From: Octopus vulgaris
Lineage: Eukaryota
DNA length: 64,000 nt
Direction: 5' to 3'
Assembly (NCBI GenBank): GCA_951406725.2
Contig: OX597818.1
Span: 114,204,001 to 114,268,000, forward strand
The translations under genes were made by a program, and so were the position numbers. Below, one piece after another: positions 1,212 to 54,662 of this stretch (position 1 is its first letter; every line of letters starts with the position of its first letter). Under the pieces are notes generated by a model, which was not told the origin of the DNA, ran no database searches, and was given only the letters and a program-made list of their open reading frames with translations.

Positions 1212-1262
<51 letters not shown>

Positions 1263-1448
1263 TAAGCAATTAAGGGTTTAGCAACGAATTGCCTCATCAC
1301 ACACCCAATTTAGAAATAGCAGTCAAAGGGTTATAGCTATTCTTTCTACTAAAAGGGAGATCTCAGTAAAAACACAGCACTTGAAAGGCAAACACAGACA
1401 GGTAAGAGAGAATGAAATGACGCCAATCTATCATACAAGTTTAAGTCA

Positions 1449-1539
1449 CCTACGGACGTACGTTTCGAAATCAAGTTTTAGGAAAGCATAAGAATTAGAT
1501 AATTCTACCTTACCCAACTTCTTTTCTCATCAGCGTAGG
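1449..1539 (-). ncRNA. Type I hammerhead ribozyme, intact core
   Basis: Minus strand reads CCTACG-CTGATGA-GAAAAGAAGTT...AACTTGATTTC-GAAA-CGTACG-TC-CGTAGG, with a 6-bp stem I, palindromic AC-GTAC-GT stem III and GUC site. Confidence 0.88.
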
Positions 1540-1719
1540 ATACTACAATGATGAATAATTGTATATTAAATTTTGAGATACTAGAAGGCATCATCTCAAA
1601 TCAGTGTCAGAGCGAGCTAAAGCATTACATTAAATGCTTTAGCTCGCTCTGACACTGAGTTGAGATGATGCCTTCTAGTATCTCAAAATTTAATATACAA
1701 TTATTCATCATTGTAGTAT

Positions 1720-1810
1720 CCTACGGTGATGAGAAAAGAAGTTGGGTAAGGTAGAATTATCTAATTCTTATGCTTTCTTAAAACTTGATTTCGAAACGTA
1801 CCTCCGTAGG
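1720..1810 (+). ncRNA. Hammerhead ribozyme copy with core substitutions (probably inactive)
   Basis: Mirror copy of 1449-1539 but reads GTGATGA instead of CTGATGA and CTC instead of GTC. Confidence 0.7.
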
Positions 1811-2101
1811 TGACTTAAAATTGTATGATAGATTGCCGTCATTTCATTCTCTCTTACCTGTCTGTGTTTGCCTTTCAAGTGCTGTGTTTTTACTGAGATC
1901 TCCCTTTTAGTAGAAAGAATAGCTATAACCCTTTGACTGCTATTTCTAAATTCGGTGTGTGGTGAGGCAATTCGTTGCTAAACCCTTAATTGCTTAGTAT
2001 TACTTAAATTTTCCTCGAATGAGGCTTTTACATGCCGAAATCTACTTGGTGTAATTAATAATTATTCCAAATTAATTAATTTCACCCTTTATTGTTACTG
2101 A

Positions 2102-2158
<57 letters not shown>

Positions 2159-2374
2159 ACAATTATAGCGTTGAAGGTGTTTAAAAGCCATTTAAGAAAC
2201 ACACAAAAACCGTTAGATTCATTTCAACATTTTAATTTAATTTACCAAAATATTTTTTATGAATATATATATATGAATATTTATATATATATATATGAAT
2301 ATTTATATATATATGAATATACATATATGAATATTTATATATATATATATGAATATTTATATATATATATATGA

Positions 2375-2409
<35 letters not shown>

Positions 2410-2601
2410 AATATATATACATATACATACACACACAGACGCATATATATATATGTATATATAAATATACATATATGTATATATGTATATATATATATTA
2501 TACATATATATATCCATATATACATATATATGTATATCTATCTATCTATCTATCTATATATATATATATATATCTATATATATATATATATATGTATATA
2601 T

Positions 2602-3366
2602 ATCGTGACGTATTTTTGCCATTTCAATATGGCTAACCCCTAAGGGTGGATGCTACTGTAGTTTTTAGCCCCAGGAGGACACACTCCTCCAGCTGGCCAT
2701 AGACACACTATCTGTGTCTTGTCAGTATTTGCAAAGGGAAGTCATCCTTCCCGTCTTCAACTTATGATACACACGGACTCGAGTTTCGAGGTATTGACCT
2801 CTCGCCAGCGTGTGACAATCATAGTTGTCGCCGAGAATTAGATTTCCTTCACAAATACTTATACTTTTTCCAGCGCCCACTGTCGCTGATATTGAAAAAG
2901 TGAAATCAAACAATGATAAATAACAAAGTGAGTTATATACAGTAGCGGTAACACATCGTGACGTATTTTTGCCATTTCAATATGGCTAACCCCTAAGGGT
3001 GGATGCTACTGTAGTTTTTAGCCCCAGGAGGACACACTCCTCCAGCTGGCCATAGACACACTATCTGTGTCCTGTCAGTATTTGCAAAGGGAAGTCATCC
3101 TTCCCGTCTTTCATTGACGAGAGGTCAATACCTCGAAACTCGAGTCCGTGTGTATCATAAGTTGAAGACGGGAAGGATGACTTCCCTTTGCAAATACTGA
3201 CAGGACACAGATAGTGTGTCTATGGCCAGCTGGAGGAGTGTGTCCTCCTGGGGCTAAAAACTACAGTAGCATCCACCCTTAGGGGTTAGCCATATTGAAA
3301 TGGCAAAAATACGTCACGATGTGTTACCGCTACTGTATATAACTCACTTTGATATTTATCATTTTG
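2602..3366. mobile_element. HHR element family H3: partial tandem plus inverted copy
   Basis: Direct repeat ATCGTGACGTATTTTTGCC... at 2602 and 2955 (period 353 nt). 3115-3366 is an inverted copy. Flanked by (TA)n. Confidence 0.85.
2770..2814 (-). ncRNA. Minimal type I hammerhead ribozyme (one core substitution)
   Basis: Minus strand reads CACACG-CTGGCGA-GAGG-TCAATA-CCTC-GAAA-CTCGAG-TC-CGTGTG. The inverted copy at 3115-3152 retains TGACGA but lacks the 5' strand of stem I. Confidence 0.82.
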
Positions 3367-3383
3367 TATATATATATATATAT

Positions 3384-4054
3384 ACCTAATCATTTTATTA
3401 CTTTATAATAGCATATATGAAATTAACCTAATTTTTGTACGCCTCTAAATTCATATTTAGCTTATATAAAACAATACCGACATCTTCACAACTTAAGTAT
3501 AAACTGCTTAGATTATAATTTAATTAATATATATTGATAGTTAGCATGTCCTTTCGCCTCAGTATTTCTTTATTGAATACCAGTAAATGCCAATGACCTA
3601 TCTTCATAGATGCCATCTAACAAGTTAATATTTAAGTATGTGATATGTATAAATATTAAACTATTTCTATGCAATTTCTTTTCTTCCCTCTATTGTGGTA
3701 AAATTTGGTATATACTCAAAAGTATTCAAAAAATTTAATCCGTTTGTTAATGCGTATCAGGGGAGGCAACTCGCCCCCGAGTTAGTGTTCATATCTTTGT
3801 TTTATTTTAGATGTATATATGAATATATGTATATGTATATATATATTCATATAAAGTTAATCCAAACAAGAAAACAAAAAAAAACACAACAACGCGAGGA
3901 CGTGGAACAAATAAAGTATTATTGGACGCCCAGGAAAGAAGGAAAGAAGGAGGATTTAACGTTTCGAGCGGAGCTCTTCGTCGGAAACATAGGAGAAGGA
4001 AAGATCCCGAGAAGGGTAGACAGAAGAAAAAAATCGCCAACGGTACTCACGAGG

Positions 4055-4869: not shown

Positions 4870-7800
4870 CCACACAAACAGCAGAGAACCCCATGGAGGA
4901 TCCAATGCCACCCAGTACACTTCAGGAAAGAAGAAATCAGGAAGGCACCGAAGAACCTGTAAGTTCTACCTGCGGGGCAAATGTTGGCATGGTGAGGACG
5001 GCAAAAACTGCCGGTTCGCCCACCCGACACCCCGCCAGAACTTCAGGGGACTCAAAGAGTAAAGCTTTACCGAGGGAACACAAGAAATGTATCCCAGGAA
5101 AACTTTCAAAAACGAAGTGCACTCCTCAGATGTTCTGCGCAACGCAGCAGCTGAGCAAGTGTCTTTTTTATGCATGGCAGAAAGAATTGTCCGGCAGCTA
5201 ACCTGGCTACACCAAGCACAGAGAAGGAACCCTGCCCACCACTATGCAAGACCACCACAGTCAACAGACACGGGATGGCCTCCCCTAACGCCTGCACAGC
5301 CGTCACCCCAATACTTTTACTAAATATTGGGGGCCTGTTGCATCAAAATAGAAACAAAATTTCTTTCCTGAGAGATCTTACTGCATGCAATCAAGCCCTA
5401 TGCATAGCACTAGTGGAAACTCACCTCAACCCTGATATAGAGGACGCAGAAGTACACATACCAAACTATGCCATACTGCGAACAGACAGAAGGGAAAGGA
5501 GCCATGGTGGAGTTGCTGTATACATCCGAGATGACCTCACACCACAGGTCTTGATGACATACTCAAATTCGGTATGTGACACCTTAATTGTATACATAAG
5601 TCAACATAATATAGTCATATGCAATACATATTGCCCACCGGATGCCCCAAATCACATAGGCAAGTTTGAAGATTGCCTCACAAGAATTAAAGAAATCCTC
5701 ATGAATCTGGAACACCACGTGGCCATATTTCTTATGGGTGATTTCAACTTCCCCAACGTCAAATGGCCCGAAGGTCACATACTATCAGGAATGAATCATT
5801 GCAAGCAGGTACAGGTGGAGTCCCTGCTCAACCTCACCAATGCCTTATTCATAGAGCAAGTTGTACTCAAGCAAACTAGGGCGAATAACATTCTGGATCT
5901 CTGCTTCACGAACAATATGGACATCATTCATGATGTGAAAGTGACACCGACATCAGTTTCGGATCACAACATAATAGAGCTGTCTATGTTTGGGCCGAAA
6001 GTAACCAGAGACATACAGCCGAAAGGAAGCACCCGAAATCTCTCCAATCTGAATTTCCATAAAGCAGATTGGAAATCGATCCAAAAAGAGATCCTCAGAG
6101 AGGACTGGCCGGAATGTCTCTCCACACCAGACATTGACATGGAACTAGAATGTTTCATGTCTTCTGTGCAAGCCGCATGTCAGAAATATGTCCCAGAGCA
6201 CAAGGCCGAAACAAATAGGAGCAAAATTCCAAGAGACAGGAAGATCCTCATGAGACGACGGACGAAGGTTGCAAATCGTCTCAACCAACATCCCAAAAGT
6301 AGCGAAACGTCCCGCCTAAAAACAACACTGATGGAGATCGAAAAAAGGCTGCAATAATCCTATGTGAAAGACAAAGCAGACAAAGAAGCTTGGGTTATAA
6401 AAAAACATTAAATCAAACCCAAAGGCCTTCTTTCATTACGCGAAAGAAACAGTCTCAGTGCACTACAAGATAGGACCCCTCTTCCAAAAGGATGGCTCCC
6501 TCACAGACGGTCCAACTATGATCAGTGAGATGCTGAATGACCAGTTCAAAAGTGTCTTTACCACCCCGTTGGAACACAGACAAGTGAACGAATCAGTGGA
6601 CTTCTTTGCCGCCTCACCTATAACCAGCGAGGCGGTTACAATAGAATGTATTGACATTAGCGAAAAAGATGTCCTAGTAGCCATAGATGAAGTGGACACA
6701 AACTCAGCTGCTGGTCCAGACGGTTTCCCAGCCATCCTCCTCAAAGCGTGTAAGCATGCCCTGGCAAAACCCCTGAAGATTCTCTTCCAGAGCTTTCTTG
6801 CGAACGGCAAACTGCCAAGCAAGCTGAAGGCGGGAATAATATGCCCAATACATAAAGGGGGAAGTAGAGCAGATGCCAAAAACTATAGGCCTATCTATCT
6901 GACTTCACACATCAGCAAAGTCATGGAACGGATAGTCAGAAAGAAACTAATCGCATTCCTTGAGGAAAATAACTTGCTGAGTAATACCCAGCATGGTTTT
7001 CGACCAGGTAGGAGCTGCCTGACCCAGCTCTTACAGCATTATGACTGGGTGTTGAGGCAGTTACTCAACAAATCAAATGTGGACGTAATCTACCTTGATT
7101 TTGCAAAAGCTTTTGACAAGGTGGATCATGGTATGATATGCCACAAATTACGTGACCTCGGCATAGCTGGAAAACTTGGAGTGTTGTTGCATGACTTCCT
7201 GAAAGATAGGAGTCAGGCAGTAGTGGTTAATGGAGCCACCTCTATGAACACACAAATAGTGAGCGGTGTTCCACAGGGCACTGTCATGGGACCACTGCTT
7301 TTTATAGTGGCCCTCTCAGATATGCCCTCAAATGCCCGGATAGCTACTCTGGCTAGCTATGCAGACGATACGGAACTCTCGCAGAAAATACAGAACCCCA
7401 GCGATGTTGCACACCTGCAGCAGGAGTTGGACTCAATCTACAGATGGGCTGAGGATAATAATATGCATTTTAATGCTGAAAAATTCCAGGCCCTGCGCTA
7501 CCAGCATCCAAAACTGAATATTAAACTTACAAGATACACCGGTCCACAGGGAATTTCAATCCCAGAGCCTAAGTCTGTGAGGGACCTGGGTATCGACATG
7601 AGTGATGATACCTCTTTCCAAGTGCACATTACCAGGATGGCGACAAAGTGCAGACGACTGGCTGGGTGGATCCTAACATTCAGAACCAGAGATAAGGAAA
7701 CGATGATGGTCCTCTAGCGGACATTCGTCCTCAGTCGCCTGGTTTACTGCTCACAGCTATGGTCACCCACCAGTGTAAAAATAACAGCGGACCTTGAAGC

Positions 7801-35809: not shown

Positions 35810-36498
35810 GTAAATGATAAGTGCATAAAGCGATAAGTGCAGAATCTGTGGACAAAATAAGAAAGAGATAAGTGCAGAATCTATGGACAAAACGATGAAA
35901 CTGTATGGTATATTACCAGCCAATGTACGCCACTAGCCCAGAAGGAATATAAGAGACGACACGACAATATAGCCAGGCTTGTCCATTGGACAGTTTGCAA
36001 CAAATATGGACTTGACAGAGCAAAAAATTGGTACGACCACAAACCTGAAGGCATCGTCGAAAATGGAAAGGCAAAGATCCTATGGGATTTTATGATTCAG
36101 TGCAACCATGAGATAGAAAATAGGAAGCCGGACATAGTCTTAATTGAGAAAGAAAGCAAACTATGCTGTATCATAGATATAGCATGCGCAGCTGACAACA
36201 AGGTATGTGATAAGGAAGAAAGAAAAGTTGAGAGATATGACAGGTTAGCTTGGGAAGTTAAGCAGTTGTAGTCGATGAAAGAGGTAGTAGTAGTAGTACC
36301 AATAATTGTCGGAGCCCTGGTAAGAGTGAGCAAAAATCTCGAGAAGTACGTGGAACAAATATGGGCAGCAATAAGGGTGGAGTACTTGCAGGAAGCAGCA
36401 CTGCTTGGAACCGCTCGAATATTCCGGAAGGTGCTCGAAAAATAAGAGTGAACAGCTGACACTGTAGTACGTCTCCAGCGTTAGAAGCTGTGCAAGGC

Positions 36499-36500
<2 letters not shown>
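35810..36500 (+). mobile_element. R4/Dong-like LINE 3' part (CCHC + REL), degenerate
   Basis: Encodes KCRICG, EYKRRHDNIA, ENRKPDIV, VPIIVGALV, LLGTARIFRKVL. (AAT)n on both sides. Confidence 0.88.
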
Positions 36501-36570
<70 letters not shown>

Positions 36571-36579
36571 TATAATAAT

Positions 36580-37106
36580 AACATGGCTTCTGATCTTAAC
36601 TGATTGGAAGTGTTATCATGTACATTGTTTTGTCTTCGTATAAAAGATGGGCTACAGCAAATATTCTGCTCAATACCACAGATTTGCTTGTCAATTGTTT
36701 GACCTTAACCAGTTGAGCATATCCCTTAGTGGCTGACGATATGTGCATCTCTGATCACGAGCAGAAGTATTTGGGGAGCATCATAGCCATGTGTTGAGAG
36801 GGATTCTTTGGGGTTTGAATAATTCACCTCTGGAAACATGGGTGGTTCTTTCAACATCCTTAAACAACCCTTATTCAGGGACCTTTTGAGCGGGATGGGC
36901 TACTCAACCTGAAGAAAATTCTAACTGGGCCCCACCTGCAAGGTCATGTGCTGTTTATCTTGATATGAGATCACCATGTCGTGCACATATGGTTGTGATG
37001 CATGTGCCTGGTGTACCCTTATCAGACGGGTAGTCATGATGGGTATATTGGGCTTCGTATATTTTACCCCAGTGTCACTTTGATGGCATGCACTGCTCTC
37101 TCACTC

Positions 37107-37107
<1 letters not shown>
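36580..37107 (+). mobile_element. Non-coding ~550-nt (AAT)n-embedded repeat, copy 1
   Basis: Near-identical to 37500-37893 and 44211-44385. No ORF. Bounded by (AAT)n. Confidence 0.75.
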
Positions 37108-37174
<67 letters not shown>

Positions 37175-37193
37175 TAATAATAATAACAATAAT

Positions 37194-37224
<31 letters not shown>

Positions 37225-37270
37225 TATTATTATTATTATTATTATTATTGCAAAGGCAATAATAATAATG

Positions 37271-37378
<108 letters not shown>

Positions 37379-37413
37379 GCAAAGGCAATAATAATAATGA
37401 TAATAATAATAAT

Positions 37414-37498
<85 letters not shown>

Positions 37499-37499
37499 G

Positions 37500-37893
37500 T
37501 AAATGCCCTGATGCAGTACCAGGAAGTGGCTCTCATGGCTTCTGATCTTAACTGATTGGAAGTGTTATCATGTACATTGTTTTGTCTTGGTATAAAAGAT
37601 GGGCTACAGCAAGTTTTCTGCTCAATACCACAGATTTGCTTGTCAGTTGTTTGACCTTAACCAGTTGAGCATGTCCCTTAGTGGCTGACGATATGTGCAT
37701 CTCTGATCACGAGCAGAAGTATTTGGGGAGCATCATAGCCATGTATTGAGAGGGATTCTCTGGGGTTTGAATAATTCACCTCTGGAAACATGGGTGTTTC
37801 GTTCAACATCCTTAAACAACCTTTATTCAGGGACCTTTTGAGTAGGATGGGTTACTCGACCAGAAGAAAATTCTAACTGGGCTCCATCTGCAA
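37500..37893 (+). mobile_element. Non-coding (AAT)n-embedded repeat, copy 2
   Basis: Starts AAATGCCCTGATGCAGTACCAGG directly after (AAT)n and is truncated by a SINE A fragment. Confidence 0.75.
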
Positions 37894-37965
37894 ATGTTTC
37901 ACTGGTACTTAATTTATCGACAACGAAAGGATGAAAGGCAAAGTTAACCCTGATGGCAGCTCGCC

Positions 37966-38016
<51 letters not shown>

Positions 38017-38018
<2 letters not shown>

Positions 38019-38725
38019 GGCACGATAGAGCTGCACAATATATTCACTGGGTAATCTGTAAAAACCTGGATTTGCCCCATGAAAAAAACTGGTGGGAACA
38101 CAAACCACCCCCAGTGCTTGAAAATGACCACATCTCACTCCTCTGGAACTTCACCATTCAAACTGACAGGAAGATAGATGCAAATAGGCCAGACATCATA
38201 TTGAAAAACTTCAAACAAAGAACATGCCTCCTCATTGATATGACTGTCCCAATCGATATAAACGTATCTGTCAAGACCTACCAAAAACTGAGCAAATATA
38301 AAGATCTTGAAATAGAAATCAGCAAAATGTGGAAGCTGAAGACTAAAACAATACCTGTTGTCATAGGTGCCCTGGGAATGATAGCAAAAGGGGCTGATAG
38401 CTACCTAACTCAGATACCAGGAAACCCAAACATGGCAGAAGTTCAAAAGATAGTGCTCATGGGAACTGCTCATATCCTACGCAAAATACTCTCTATGTAA
38501 TCTCAAGGTTTAAAACAAACATAATTTTCGGTTTAAAAAAAAAAAAAAAAAAAAAAACTTTTTTTTTTTTCTTTTTAGACATTCATTAGTACAACATCCC
38601 CACCCCCCAAATATATGGCACACTAGGCATAACAACAACATGAACTTCCAACCCTGTTGTCTCTTGAGGTCTCTGGGTGAGACTTGGAGCCAACTTGTAC
38701 AAATATAAAGCAAAAGTCAAACATA

Positions 38726-38727
<2 letters not shown>
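38017..38727 (+). mobile_element. R4/Dong-like LINE 3' part
   Basis: RHDRAAQYIHW...ANRPDII...IDMTVP...KLSKYKDL...LMGTAHILRKILSM, then a 3'UTR and (AAT)n. Confidence 0.92.
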
Positions 38728-38771
<44 letters not shown>

Positions 38772-38774
38772 TAC

Positions 38775-40720
<1,946 letters not shown>

Positions 40721-40740
40721 TAATAATAATAATAATAATA

Positions 40741-42305
<1,565 letters not shown>

Positions 42306-43251
42306 GACATTCTTTTCTACTCTAGGCAGAAGGCCCGAAATTTTGGGTAAGGGGGCGATCGATTAAACCGACTCCAGTATGCAACTAGTGCTTAATTTAT
42401 TGACCCCGAAAGGATGAAAATTATTATTAGGCAGCTTGCCTAATAACAACAAGTTGAAATATTTCTTTATCATTCATAGACCTTGTTATACAACCACTGA
42501 AAATATTGCCCTTCACACGTCCTATTATAGGTAGTAGTGCAGCTTTTCATATCACTCGTGATTGTCTGCAATAAAAAGTAGCTATGGATTGTATGGTGGT
42601 AGTACATAGCATTATGATTAAAAAGAAACCTGGTGAATAGCCTCAAATAATTTCAAGCATGAAGCTACTCGGTTAGGTAGTAACTTGTTTCTAAACAACA
42701 GAAATAATACACAGCTATAGAGCGTTTACGTTGTTCAACCTAGATCCGACAAATATACTTGAGGTCACGCACTACTGACTGAAATGCGTTGCACACTTTG
42801 GATAATGTAGGCCTAGATCTGTGGCTTGTGAGCAGTGTATTAAAGCGACATCTATCTTTTAGTTGTGACAGTCATTAGACAGCGGCCATGTTAGGGCACC
42901 GCCTTCAAGAGTTTTTAGTCGAATGAATAGATCCTACTTCTTCCTAAGTAATAAAATAACCTGTATCTATTCTCCATAGCTAAATATTATGAAGAGTCTA
43001 TAAATAGTAAAACACTTGCCAAGCCAATGGTGGTAACCTCTACTTGGTCAAGGGATTTGCTAAAAGTAGCCACCTAATTTCCTTCAAATCGCAACCTGTC
43101 GTCGTAAAAGAGAAGGCTTCATTGGAAAATGTAATCCTAGATAAATATCTGAATAATAAGCAATAAGTAGGGTAATAAAAATGACAAGCAAGATATATTT
43201 GCAATATTACGAATTAGAGAAAATGTCGGCAACTTCGAATCTAAATACTTA

Positions 43252-43326
<75 letters not shown>

Positions 43327-43548
43327 AATAATAATAATGGTCTCAAATTTTGTCACAAGGGCAGCAATTTTGGGGCAGGGGATGAATCGATTACATCGGC
43401 TCCAGTGTTCAACTGGTCCTTATTTTATCGACCCTAAAAGGATGAAAGGCAAAGTTGACCTCGGCGGAATTTGAACTCAGAACGTAGCGACGGTCGAAAT
43501 ACTGCTAAGCATTTCGTCCAGCACGCTAACGATTCTGCAAGCTCGCGG

Positions 43549-43644
<96 letters not shown>

Positions 43645-43651
43645 TAATAAT

Positions 43652-44145
43652 ACAAAGCCAATAAACCGGATATTGTTGTGAAAGACCAAAACAATAAAGT
43701 TTGCTTATTGATCGTCATGAGTATCCCCTGTGATCATAATACCTCGGCAAAAGAGTTTGACAAGCTCAGAAAATATAAAGACCTGCTCATTGAAATTGAG
43801 AAAATGTGGCATCTCAAGGCGGTTACAGTACCAGTGATCGTAGGAGCACTAGGAATGATCAAGAAGGGAACCGAAAATTACATGAGAATGATCCCTGGCT
43901 TACCGTCCCTGCAAGAAGTGCAAAAGATTGTCTTAACTGGTACATCACACGTATTGAGAAGAGCATTGTCGATGTTAGAACTATTACTACCCATGTATTT
44001 TAATTTAACTTAAAAACAAAAATGAACGAACTAGTGAGTTTAGTTTAATGGCCTACCAATGTATACTAAGAGTTTCTTTGCCCTAGGAGTCGGGAAGACA
44101 CTCGGCAAGAAATGGAAGCAAATTTGATAGAAGAGGAAAAAAAAG

Positions 44146-52682: not shown

Positions 52683-52973
52683 TATATATGTGTGTGTGTG
52701 TGTGTAGCTTATAGTTATTAATAATATTGCTATCAAATTTGGGCACAAAACCACGAGCAATTTTGAGGGAAAATGTGAGTCGATTACATCAACTCCAGTA
52801 CTCAAGTTGTACTTACTTTATCGACACAGAAAGGGTGCAAGGCAAAGTCGACCTCGGCGGGATACCAACTCAGACCGTAAGGACTGACGAAATGCCTCTA
52901 AGCAATTTGCCCAGCGTCCTAATAGTTCTCCCTGCTCACCGCCTTAATAATAATAATAGGAAGAAGAATAATG

Positions 52974-53040
<67 letters not shown>

Positions 53041-53043
<3 letters not shown>

Positions 53044-54662
53044 CAAACAGCTGGAAACACTATTAAAGACAGTTCATGGATTTACCAAAGAAATAGATAT
53101 GAAATTTGGATTAGAAAAATGCGCCAAAGTAACCATGAAAAGAGGAAAACTAGTTAAGAGTAACAACATCACACTAGATAAAACCAATGAAATAAAAGAA
53201 CTAGACCAAAGCCAAACTTACAAATACTTAGGAATCCATGAACTAGATAAGACACAACACACACAAATGAAAGAGAAAATAAAAAAGAATATTATAGACG
53301 AGTTAGATCAATACTAAACACAGAGCTCAATGCTAAAAACAAGATAATAGGTTTCAACACTTTAGCTGTCCCAGTTATAAGTTACAGCTACAATATCCTT
53401 AACTGGACACGAAATGAACTGACCAAAATAGATAGGAAAACAAGAAAAATAATAACAGGATCTAGGATGCATCACCCAAAATCTGACATAGAAAGACTAT
53501 ATATGCAACGTATAGAAGGTGGTAGAGGCCTTATATAGCTGGAAAACTACTATAAAATAACCACCATAGGACTGCAAAAATATCTACTTCAGAAGGAAGG
53601 AAAAACTGATCCAGATAGCGGCAAAACACGAGCAAAACAAAAAACTGTTCTCAGTATTTAAGGAAGCTGACAAATACAAACAAGAAATCATACCACCTAA
53701 TAAACATGAAGAAGAAGAAGATGATGAAGAAACAACAAAAGCTATAAAATAAATGAAATCCAAACTAAAAATAGAACAGCAACGAACCATGATAAAACGA
53801 TGGCAAGAAAAGCCCCTTCATGGTAAATACTGGACTAAACTAAACGCAAAAGAAATAGACAAAGAAAAATCCCAGCAATGGTTGAGAAGCTCAGGACTCA
53901 AAGCAGAGACAGAGGAATTTTTAATTGCAGCACAAGACCAAAGCCTCCCCACCAGAAATTACCAAAAACATGTAATGAAAAGAAATATTACAAGTAACTG
54001 CAGAATATGTGGAGATGGACAAGAAACAATAAATCATATTATCTCTAGCTGCCCAGTCCTGGCTAAGAAGGAATATATTCACAGACATGACAGAGTTGGA
54101 ACCTACATACATTGGAAGCTATGCCAACATTATGGAATAACAACAGAAAAAAGATGGTATAGGCACACACCAGAAAAGGTCACAGAAAACGAGAAAGCAA
54201 CCATACTCTGGGATATGCCGATACACACAGATAGAGAAATTAAGGCCAACAGACCAGATATAGTTGTCAGAGATCATGAAGAAAAAAATGCTTTCTAATT
54301 GATGTATCAATACCGGCTGATGACAACGTGTCTCTAAAAGAAATGGAGAAACTCTCAAAATACAAAGACCTGGAAATAGAGGTTACTAGAATGTGGAATC
54401 TAAAAGCAGAAACAATTCCTATCATAGTAGGTGCATTAGGCGTGATAAAAAAATATTCAAACAAATACATAACAAAAACACCAGGACTTACAAACACATA
54501 TAACATACAAAAAATTACACTACTAGGCACTGCACACATCCTACACAGAACTCTTTCCATACAATAACCATCAGAGCATCACAACAAATCACAGCACATA
54601 CCCAAGGCACACAGAGCTGCGCTCGGTAGTGAAGTGAAAGCACGCTATAAAAAATAAAACTA

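What the first reader, a model, noticed from the sequence alone, without database searches (positions are those of the whole stretch)
2602..3366. 353-nt tandem unit joined head-to-head to an inverted copy at the ribozyme core
Seen: a direct repeat of period 353 nt (2602 vs 2955) with one HHR per unit on the minus strand, then a strand switch at ~3111-3115 where the plus copy starts at TGACGA. Inference: 353 nt is the monomer (cleavage site to cleavage site) of a retrozyme-like RNA, and the insert arose from two cDNAs primed from both ends of a break in (TA)n.
Basis: partly seen in the sequence, partly recalled or inferred. Interest (0 to 1): 0.72.

Follow-up and report, generated by a model that had tools for sequence, protein, structure and literature searches.

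The report
Penelope-inserted hammerhead retrozyme, two-armed copy
This is one young, likely disabled copy of a protein-free 353-base jumping repeat that carries a predicted self-cutting RNA motif, and the build of its sister copies suggests that a Penelope-type enzyme likely copied one RNA, possibly a circle, from both ends of a cut in TA repeats.

Summary
Real, and largely a known kind. Window 2602-3363 is one insertion of a young (~0.5% diverged) family of 353-nt non-coding units, each with a type I hammerhead. A 509-nt minus arm and a 249-nt plus arm join 5'-to-5', both 3' ends in (TA)n. In 201 family loci, 98 are two-armed; 88 of these pair one untailed end with one end carrying a ~45-nt tail (1 U/U, 1 T/T, 8 other). 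That is the Penelope-like-element (PLE) footprint, also shown by an autonomous PLE family here. Two reader claims fail: the junction at the ribozyme is coincidence (14 of 198 5' ends in the ribozyme, 23.6 expected), and this copy has one complete ribozyme, with a private core mutation. The 353 period holds (68 of 77 spacings 351-354). The main addition: both arms carry one haplotype (60 of 60 at a 50:50 site) and rare variants are fixed across all units, pointing to one template, plausibly a circle. No RNA is shown and no partner PLE was identified. The scan reached this reading before on other families of this genome.

The parts
2263..2601 (.). (TA)n-rich microsatellite, left part of the target
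   Evidence: TRF 2263-2603; sequence
2602..3110 (-). Left arm, 1.44 units (unit positions 198-353, then 1-353). Its 3' end at 2602 is the untailed (U) end
2602..2954 (-). One complete 353-nt unit; highly structured as RNA (z = -6.0)
2770..2814 (-). Only complete type I hammerhead: stem I 2814-2809/2775-2770, core 2808-2802, stem II 2801-2788, GAAA 2787-2784, palindromic stem III. Predicted cut between 2776 and 2775. Private A-to-G at core position 6 (window 2805)
   Evidence: (table 3)
3111..3114 (.). 4-nt junction filler TCAT; its TCA is the reverse complement of the first three bases of the right arm
   Evidence: sequence
3115..3363 (+). Right arm, 249 nt (unit positions 148-353, then 1-43)
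3115..3152 (+). 5'-truncated hammerhead (lacks C3 and the 5' strand of stem I); Rfam RF00163 21.9 bits, below the gathering score 34
3321..3363 (+). PLE-type 'tail': 43 nt beyond the untailed end, ending at the second fixed 3' end (T end)
3367..3385 (.). (TA)n, right part of the target

Best explanation
The stretch is one insertion of a young non-coding 353-nt hammerhead repeat family (a non-LTR retrozyme), likely written into a (TA)n tract by a Penelope-like element's enzyme that likely primed reverse transcription from both cut strands on one RNA template. Shown: unit, period, family, (TA)n target, outward 3' ends, two fixed 3' ends ~45 nt apart used once each, scattered 5' joins, shared arm haplotype. 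Inferred: (1) a PLE GIY-YIG/RT protein, probably a dimer, cuts both strands; (2) one subunit starts cDNA at the tail end and the other at the untailed site; (3) both copy the same RNA molecule, or RNA from one source locus, for variable lengths up to 6 units; (4) the two cDNA ends are joined by microhomology or short templated filler, giving the head-to-head structure. The template is more likely a ligated 353-nt circle made by dimeric hammerhead cleavage (~55%) than a linear multimer. This copy is likely unable to release a monomer, having a single, core-mutated ribozyme.
For: Family: 2300 first-look candidates, 166 matches among 40 scored; 175 exact untailed ends followed by TA; 0.5% divergence. 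Ends: 88 of 98 two-armed loci pair T with U. In loci picked only by the U end the partner was T in 33 of 34 and 21 of 23 (replication). PLE footprint in print: inverted 5'-truncated copy, 30-40-bp tail often at one end, (TA)n bias (PMC8557442; PMC3846280). The tail equals the interval between two RT start sites; both strands are cut and extended; dimer predicted (PMC11167929). An autonomous RT+GIY-YIG family here shows two ends ~30 nt apart, one of each in 5 of 5 apparent inverted pairs. One template: site 245 (50:50) agrees between arms in 51 of 51 and 9 of 9, and is uniform within arms in 62 of 63 and 11 of 11. 23 rare variants are fixed in all copies of their locus, 15 of them seen in no other locus. 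In 3 of 3 loci where neither arm contains the other, the arms still agree. Arm lengths correlate (rho 0.53, n = 60; 0.48, n = 20). Core intact in 237 of 251 complete hammerheads.
Against: No partner PLE with homology to the unit among 50 GIY-YIG loci out of 6136 candidates; the one hit (L191) is a separate neighbouring insertion. Cleavage and circularity are untested. A few arrays are mixed (L004, L043, L092, L093, L064, L287, L294), which a single monomer circle does not explain without later conversion or template switching. No scar at the ligation site, which also fits uncleaved templates. In vitro, the anole PLE used uncleaved RNA and showed no strand preference for start sites (PMC11167929). 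Arm-length correlation could come from later central deletion of the palindrome. Loci were selected by end motifs, so proportions are not unbiased genome frequencies.
Confidence: 0.8

Rival explanations
1. Same PLE-driven two-ended priming, but the template is an uncleaved linear multimeric transcript from a homogeneous source array (or two RNAs from one source locus), with no circle.
For: PAc uses unprocessed RNA in vitro. Mixed arrays exist. No scar at the cut site. Helix III is short, so monomer cleavage is expected to be weak (PMC4209133). Haplotype agreement alone cannot separate this from a circle.
Against: Variants private to one locus yet present in all its units (e.g. 5 of 5 in L039, 6 of 6 in L119) need a unit-level amplification step. 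Linear copying with 5' truncation only shortens arrays, yet arms reach 6 units. Strong conservation of the catalytic core (237 of 251).
Confidence: 0.35
2. The inverted arm is a fold-back (self-primed) copy of the first arm, as proposed for PLE head-to-head palindromes (PMC3846280), or arms were homogenised after insertion.
For: It would explain shared haplotypes. A few joins are palindromic, and some carry small hairpin fillers.
Against: Only 5 of 68 joins are within 10 nt of palindromic, 4.0 expected. The two arms end at different fixed sites. In some loci each arm holds sequence absent from the other. 224 single-copy differences persist inside loci; this window's arms differ at 3 positions.
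Confidence: 0.07
3. One reading: the head-to-head join is made specifically at the ribozyme core (cDNA stops at the cleaved 5' end).
For: This copy's right arm starts 1 nt inside the core; L013 has a near-identical join.
Against: 14 of 198 5' ends fall in the ribozyme against 23.6 expected; 3 of 194 passes stop within 6 nt of the cut site; the join here is 32 nt upstream of the cut site.
Confidence: 0.03
4. Assembly artefact (fold-back chimera) or a plain satellite.
For: Inverted structure within low-complexity flanks.
Against: 98 loci with different joins but the same two ends; the arms carry differences; dispersed on 30+ contigs.
Confidence: 0.02

Closest known systems
Metazoan non-LTR retrozymes (Cervera and de la Pena 2020, PMC7229834; mussel 350-390 bp, axolotl Rtz353)
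   Same: Non-coding tandem unit of 150-450 bp, GC under 50%, one type I hammerhead per unit, short palindromic helix III, dispersed monomers to multimers, co-occurring with PLEs.
   Different: Circular and linear RNAs were shown there, not here. 'Inverted' does not occur in that paper's main text; the two-armed, tailed insertion structure is what this family adds.
Non-LTR retrozymes as non-autonomous PLE derivatives (Li, Clavereau, Pollet 2026, bioRxiv 10.64898/2026.07.22.740005)
   Same: Same conclusion: PLE-mobilised hammerhead tandem repeats.
   Different: Their evidence is co-occurrence and pLTR homology in Xenopus. Here there is no pLTR homology but there is insertion-scar and haplotype evidence.
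EN+ Penelope-like elements (Penelope/Poseidon, Neptune, Naiad; PMC8557442, PMC3846280, PMC11167929)
   Same: Partial tandems, inverted 5'-truncated copy, tail at one end, AT-rich or (TA)n targets, hammerhead upstream of the 3' ends.
   Different: No ORF (longest stop-free stretch 84 aa); tail ~45 nt rather than 30-40; the whole unit is repeated with no coding body.
L1 twin priming (recalled, not from a call)
   Same: Two target ends prime cDNA on one RNA and give an internal inversion joined by microhomology.
   Different: In L1 the two segments are consecutive, non-overlapping parts of one linear RNA and the second primer site is variable. Here both start sites are fixed and the arms overlap in sequence.

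Membership tests
Non-LTR retrozyme | Tandem unit of ~150-450 bp, low GC, no LTR and no ORF | tested here: met
   353 nt; spacing 351-354 in 68 of 77; longest stop-free stretch 84 aa
Non-LTR retrozyme | Type I hammerhead in each unit | tested here: met
   Core intact in 237 of 251 complete spans; stems I-III pair. Rfam RF00163 only 21.9 bits on the truncated window copy, below its cut-off
Non-LTR retrozyme ('active' by Li et al.) | [quoted passage not shown] | tested here: not met
   This locus has one complete, core-mutated hammerhead; other family loci meet it (e.g. L039, L056)
Non-LTR retrozyme | Self-cleavage of the transcript | not testable with these tools
   Needs in vitro transcription
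Non-LTR retrozyme | Expressed as linear and circular monomer RNA | tested here: inconclusive
   Only assembled contigs of runs not on record as RNA were available; they cannot show ends or circularity
PLE-type insertion | Inverted 5'-truncated copy at the 5' end | tested here: met
   98 of 201 loci
PLE-type insertion | Two 3' ends separated by an optional tail | tested here: met
   Ends at unit 345-353 and 41-48; 88 of 98 pair one of each
PLE-type insertion | AT-rich or microsatellite target | tested here: met
   210 of 218 3' flanks TA-rich
PLE (autonomous) | RT plus GIY-YIG ORF | tested here: not met
   No ORF in the unit; such ORFs occur elsewhere in the genome
Derivative of a specific PLE pLTR | Sequence homology to the pLTR of an autonomous PLE | tested here: inconclusive
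   None among 50 GIY-YIG loci of 6136 candidates

The most novel reading that the evidence does not exclude
Each insertion is a genomic record of one circular RNA copied by two reverse transcriptases at once: a PLE dimer bound asymmetrically at two fixed sites 45 nt apart, each primed by one strand of the cut, both rolling round the same 353-nt circle. One-tailed-one-untailed would be a rule of PLE integration rather than an option, and RNA-level changes in that molecule (possibly A-to-I edits) would be fixed into every repeat.
Probability: 0.4. Interest if true: 0.68.

Novelty: new member of a known kind. Interest (0 to 1): 0.42.

Why it matters
Retrozymes, their likely PLE drivers and the tandem/inverted/tail footprint are all in print, so the element itself is ordinary. 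What is useful is that hundreds of near-identical young insertions make two open questions testable: how PLE head-to-head structures form, and whether animal retrozyme circles are the real transposition templates (proposed in PMC4209133 and PMC7229834, not shown in the passages read). The near-strict pairing of one tailed with one untailed end, and the single haplotype per insertion, give specific predictions for the in vitro PLE assay. I found neither stated in the papers and searches used; supplements and subscription journals were mostly not seen.

Tried and rejected
Rfam at gathering threshold: 0 hits in the window; at E-value only a sub-threshold RF00163 hit, plus miRNA models that merely fit the palindromes. 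RNA: no RNA holder listed. Contigs of four runs guessed to be RNA cover all bins of the unit and show the 353 return join, which a tandem and a circle give alike. Junction check: no listed contig bridges 3111-3114 in four runs; contigs drop rare variants and may be other individuals, so this says nothing either way. Partner search: L191 looked like a PLE with a matching pLTR (81%) but is a separate TA-flanked insertion of a diverged sister retrozyme 600 nt beyond the PLE's end; rejected. A-to-I editing (lead from note e1-8662707): A>G made up 6 of 15 locus-fixed variants against 10 of 178 single-copy ones (p = 0.0004), but only 1 of 8 against 4 of 46 in 60 new loci (p = 0.57); combined 7 of 23 against 14 of 224; not replicated, left open. 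Excess of palindromic joins: none. Scar at the ligation site: none. Dropped rows: 8 duplicate loci among L001-L030; L103 (duplicate of L102) is counts but out; L269 (likely duplicate of L268) is and out. 14 of the 175 listed untailed ends on C24-C32 were not fetched (cap), and 40 of the tail-only ends in the first 100 listed rows were. Paper search returned nothing; the supplement search of PMC11167929 found no text hits.

Full report
Observation. The window lies in a 2.8-Gb animal genome (G000:C5); earlier notes call it a cephalopod, which I did not test. 2602-2757 and 2955-3110 are a 156-nt direct repeat at spacing 353 with one mismatch, and both are inverted against 3115-3363. Read in the ribozyme's sense, the insert is a 509-nt minus arm (1.44 units, 3' end at 2602), a 4-nt filler, and a 249-nt plus arm (3' end at 3363), both ending in (TA)n. 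Only one complete hammerhead is present (2814-2770). It has G at core position 6, where 206 of 208 family units have A; that A6 is a conserved catalytic-core base is recalled. The plus arm begins one base inside the core and lacks half of stem I. So this locus likely cannot release a monomer.

The ribozyme. Stem I has 6 bp, stem II 5 bp with a CAAU loop, and helix III is the short palindrome ACUCGAGU; two copies co-fold over 8 bp. This matches the short palindromic helix III that needs dimers (PMC4209133, passages). A sister family at 73-84% identity has CCCGGG in place of CUCGAG, keeping the palindrome (those loci were picked by that motif). The unit folds far better than shuffles (z = -6.0 linear; -6.0 circular). 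Rfam gives only a sub-threshold RF00163 match.

The family. A search of the genome gave 2300 candidates and 166 matches in the 40 scored; 175 exact untailed ends are followed by TA. I parsed 142 loci, then 60 more as replication; 201 after dropping one duplicate. Divergence is 0.5% outside common sites. Spacing between cleavage sites is 351-354 in 68 of 77, and 237 of 251 complete hammerheads keep the core. Arms run from 21 to 2125 nt. 210 of 218 3' flanks are TA-rich.

Ends and joins. 3' ends fall at two sites: unit 345-353 (untailed, U) and 41-48 (tailed, T). Of 98 two-armed loci, 88 are T/U, 1 T/T, 1 U/U and 8 have one other end. In loci chosen only by a U end, the other end was T in 33 of 34 and 21 of 23. 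5' ends scatter over the unit: 14 of 198 fall in the ribozyme against 23.6 expected, and 3 of 194 passes stop at the cut site. Of 68 simple joins, 49 overlap, 9 are blunt and 10 have filler; 5 are near-palindromic against 4.0 expected.

One template. At site 245 (about 50:50 between loci) the two arms agree in 51 of 51 (p = 5e-16) and 9 of 9; units within an arm are uniform in 62 of 63 and 11 of 11. Sites 79 and 124 agree in 26 of 27 and 32 of 34. 23 rare variants are fixed in every copy within their locus, 15 seen in no other locus, while 224 single-copy differences persist, so arms are not being homogenised now. In 3 of 3 loci where each arm holds sequence the other lacks, they still agree. 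Arm lengths correlate in both sets, though later central deletion could also do this. Against a pure monomer circle: several mixed arrays (L004, L043, L064, L092, L093, L287, L294). An A>G excess among fixed variants did not replicate.

The driver. GIY-YIG elements are abundant (6136 candidates). Two families encode RT plus GIY-YIG, with a cysteine linker of the Neptune type as described in PMC8557442. One is very young (1557 candidates, top copies ~100% identical), sits in (TA)n, and has two 3' ends ~30 nt apart, one of each in 5 of 5 apparent inverted pairs (contiguity of the pairs not checked). No PLE among 50 loci examined shares sequence with the unit, so the partner is unidentified and PLE mobilisation rests on the footprint.

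Literature. bioRxiv 10.64898/2026.07.22.740005 (main text read, parts 1-3 of 5) argues that animal retrozymes are non-autonomous PLE derivatives. PMC7229834 (passages) defines non-LTR retrozymes, shows circles, and proposes RT on circles with PLEs as candidates. [quoted passage not shown] PMC11167929 (main-text section read; supplement text searched, no hits) shows both strands cut and extended, two RT start sites defining the tail, a predicted dimer, and uncleaved RNA as substrate. PMC4209133 (passages) proposes circular templates for PLE tandems. Supplementary figures of these papers (e.g. the model in PMC7229834 Fig. S9, the genomic ends in PMC11167929 Fig. S2) were not seen and may bear on how new the pairing rule is.

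Earlier notes. A look-up by sequence and by place found nothing on this family. A look-up by words found the same reading on 359-, 360- and 485-490-nt families of this genome. My reading predated it; those notes are not independent support, and one supplied the editing test.

Verdict. A new family of a known kind. Membership in non-LTR retrozymes is met on sequence, untested on RNA. PLE-type two-ended insertion is well supported (0.8). The circle is a modest favourite (~0.55 given that). Interest 0.42.

Noticed in passing
window 1262-2105: A second two-armed hammerhead insertion directly upstream: a near-palindrome (arms 1259-1626 and 1633-2000, 97% identical) of a different family with a ~583-nt period and a long stem II (3153 candidates). 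The right arm runs ~105 nt further. 9 of 11 two-armed loci pair a short with a long end. Both arms appear to carry different core or stem mutations.
   Followed up: partly
L191:4076-4313; L201-L212: A diverged sister retrozyme family (73-84% identity) with the same two end positions and a CCCGGG helix III.
   Followed up: partly
L191:1082-3479; L213-L242: Very young autonomous Neptune-like PLE family (1557 candidates, ~100% identical top copies) in (TA)n, with a ~30-nt tail and a minimal hammerhead-like motif with a CCGAAGA core near L191:3307-3345 (seen by eye).
   Followed up: partly
L157, L200 and many contigs: Second PLE family with an intact 781-aa RT+GIY-YIG frame in many copies.
   Followed up: partly
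window 5155-7717 (+): Frameshifted APE-plus-RT non-LTR retrotransposon remnant (motifs read from the translation; no family search run).
   Followed up: no
window 35861-44013, 52715-54298: Several non-LTR retrotransposon fragments with a restriction-like endonuclease C-terminus, each flanked by (TAA)n tracts, resembling R4/Dong-type elements (label recalled).
   Followed up: no
L077; L102/L103; L268/L269: Family insertions duplicated together with their flanks (tandem or segmental duplication, or assembly redundancy).
   Followed up: no
L002, L033, L042, L087: Joins containing short extra inverted or displaced pieces of the unit (23-38 nt), like templated insertions of end joining.
   Followed up: no
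window 2602-3363: Any read-through transcript would form ~200-bp hairpins between the arms, a possible source of double-stranded RNA (inference).
   Followed up: no
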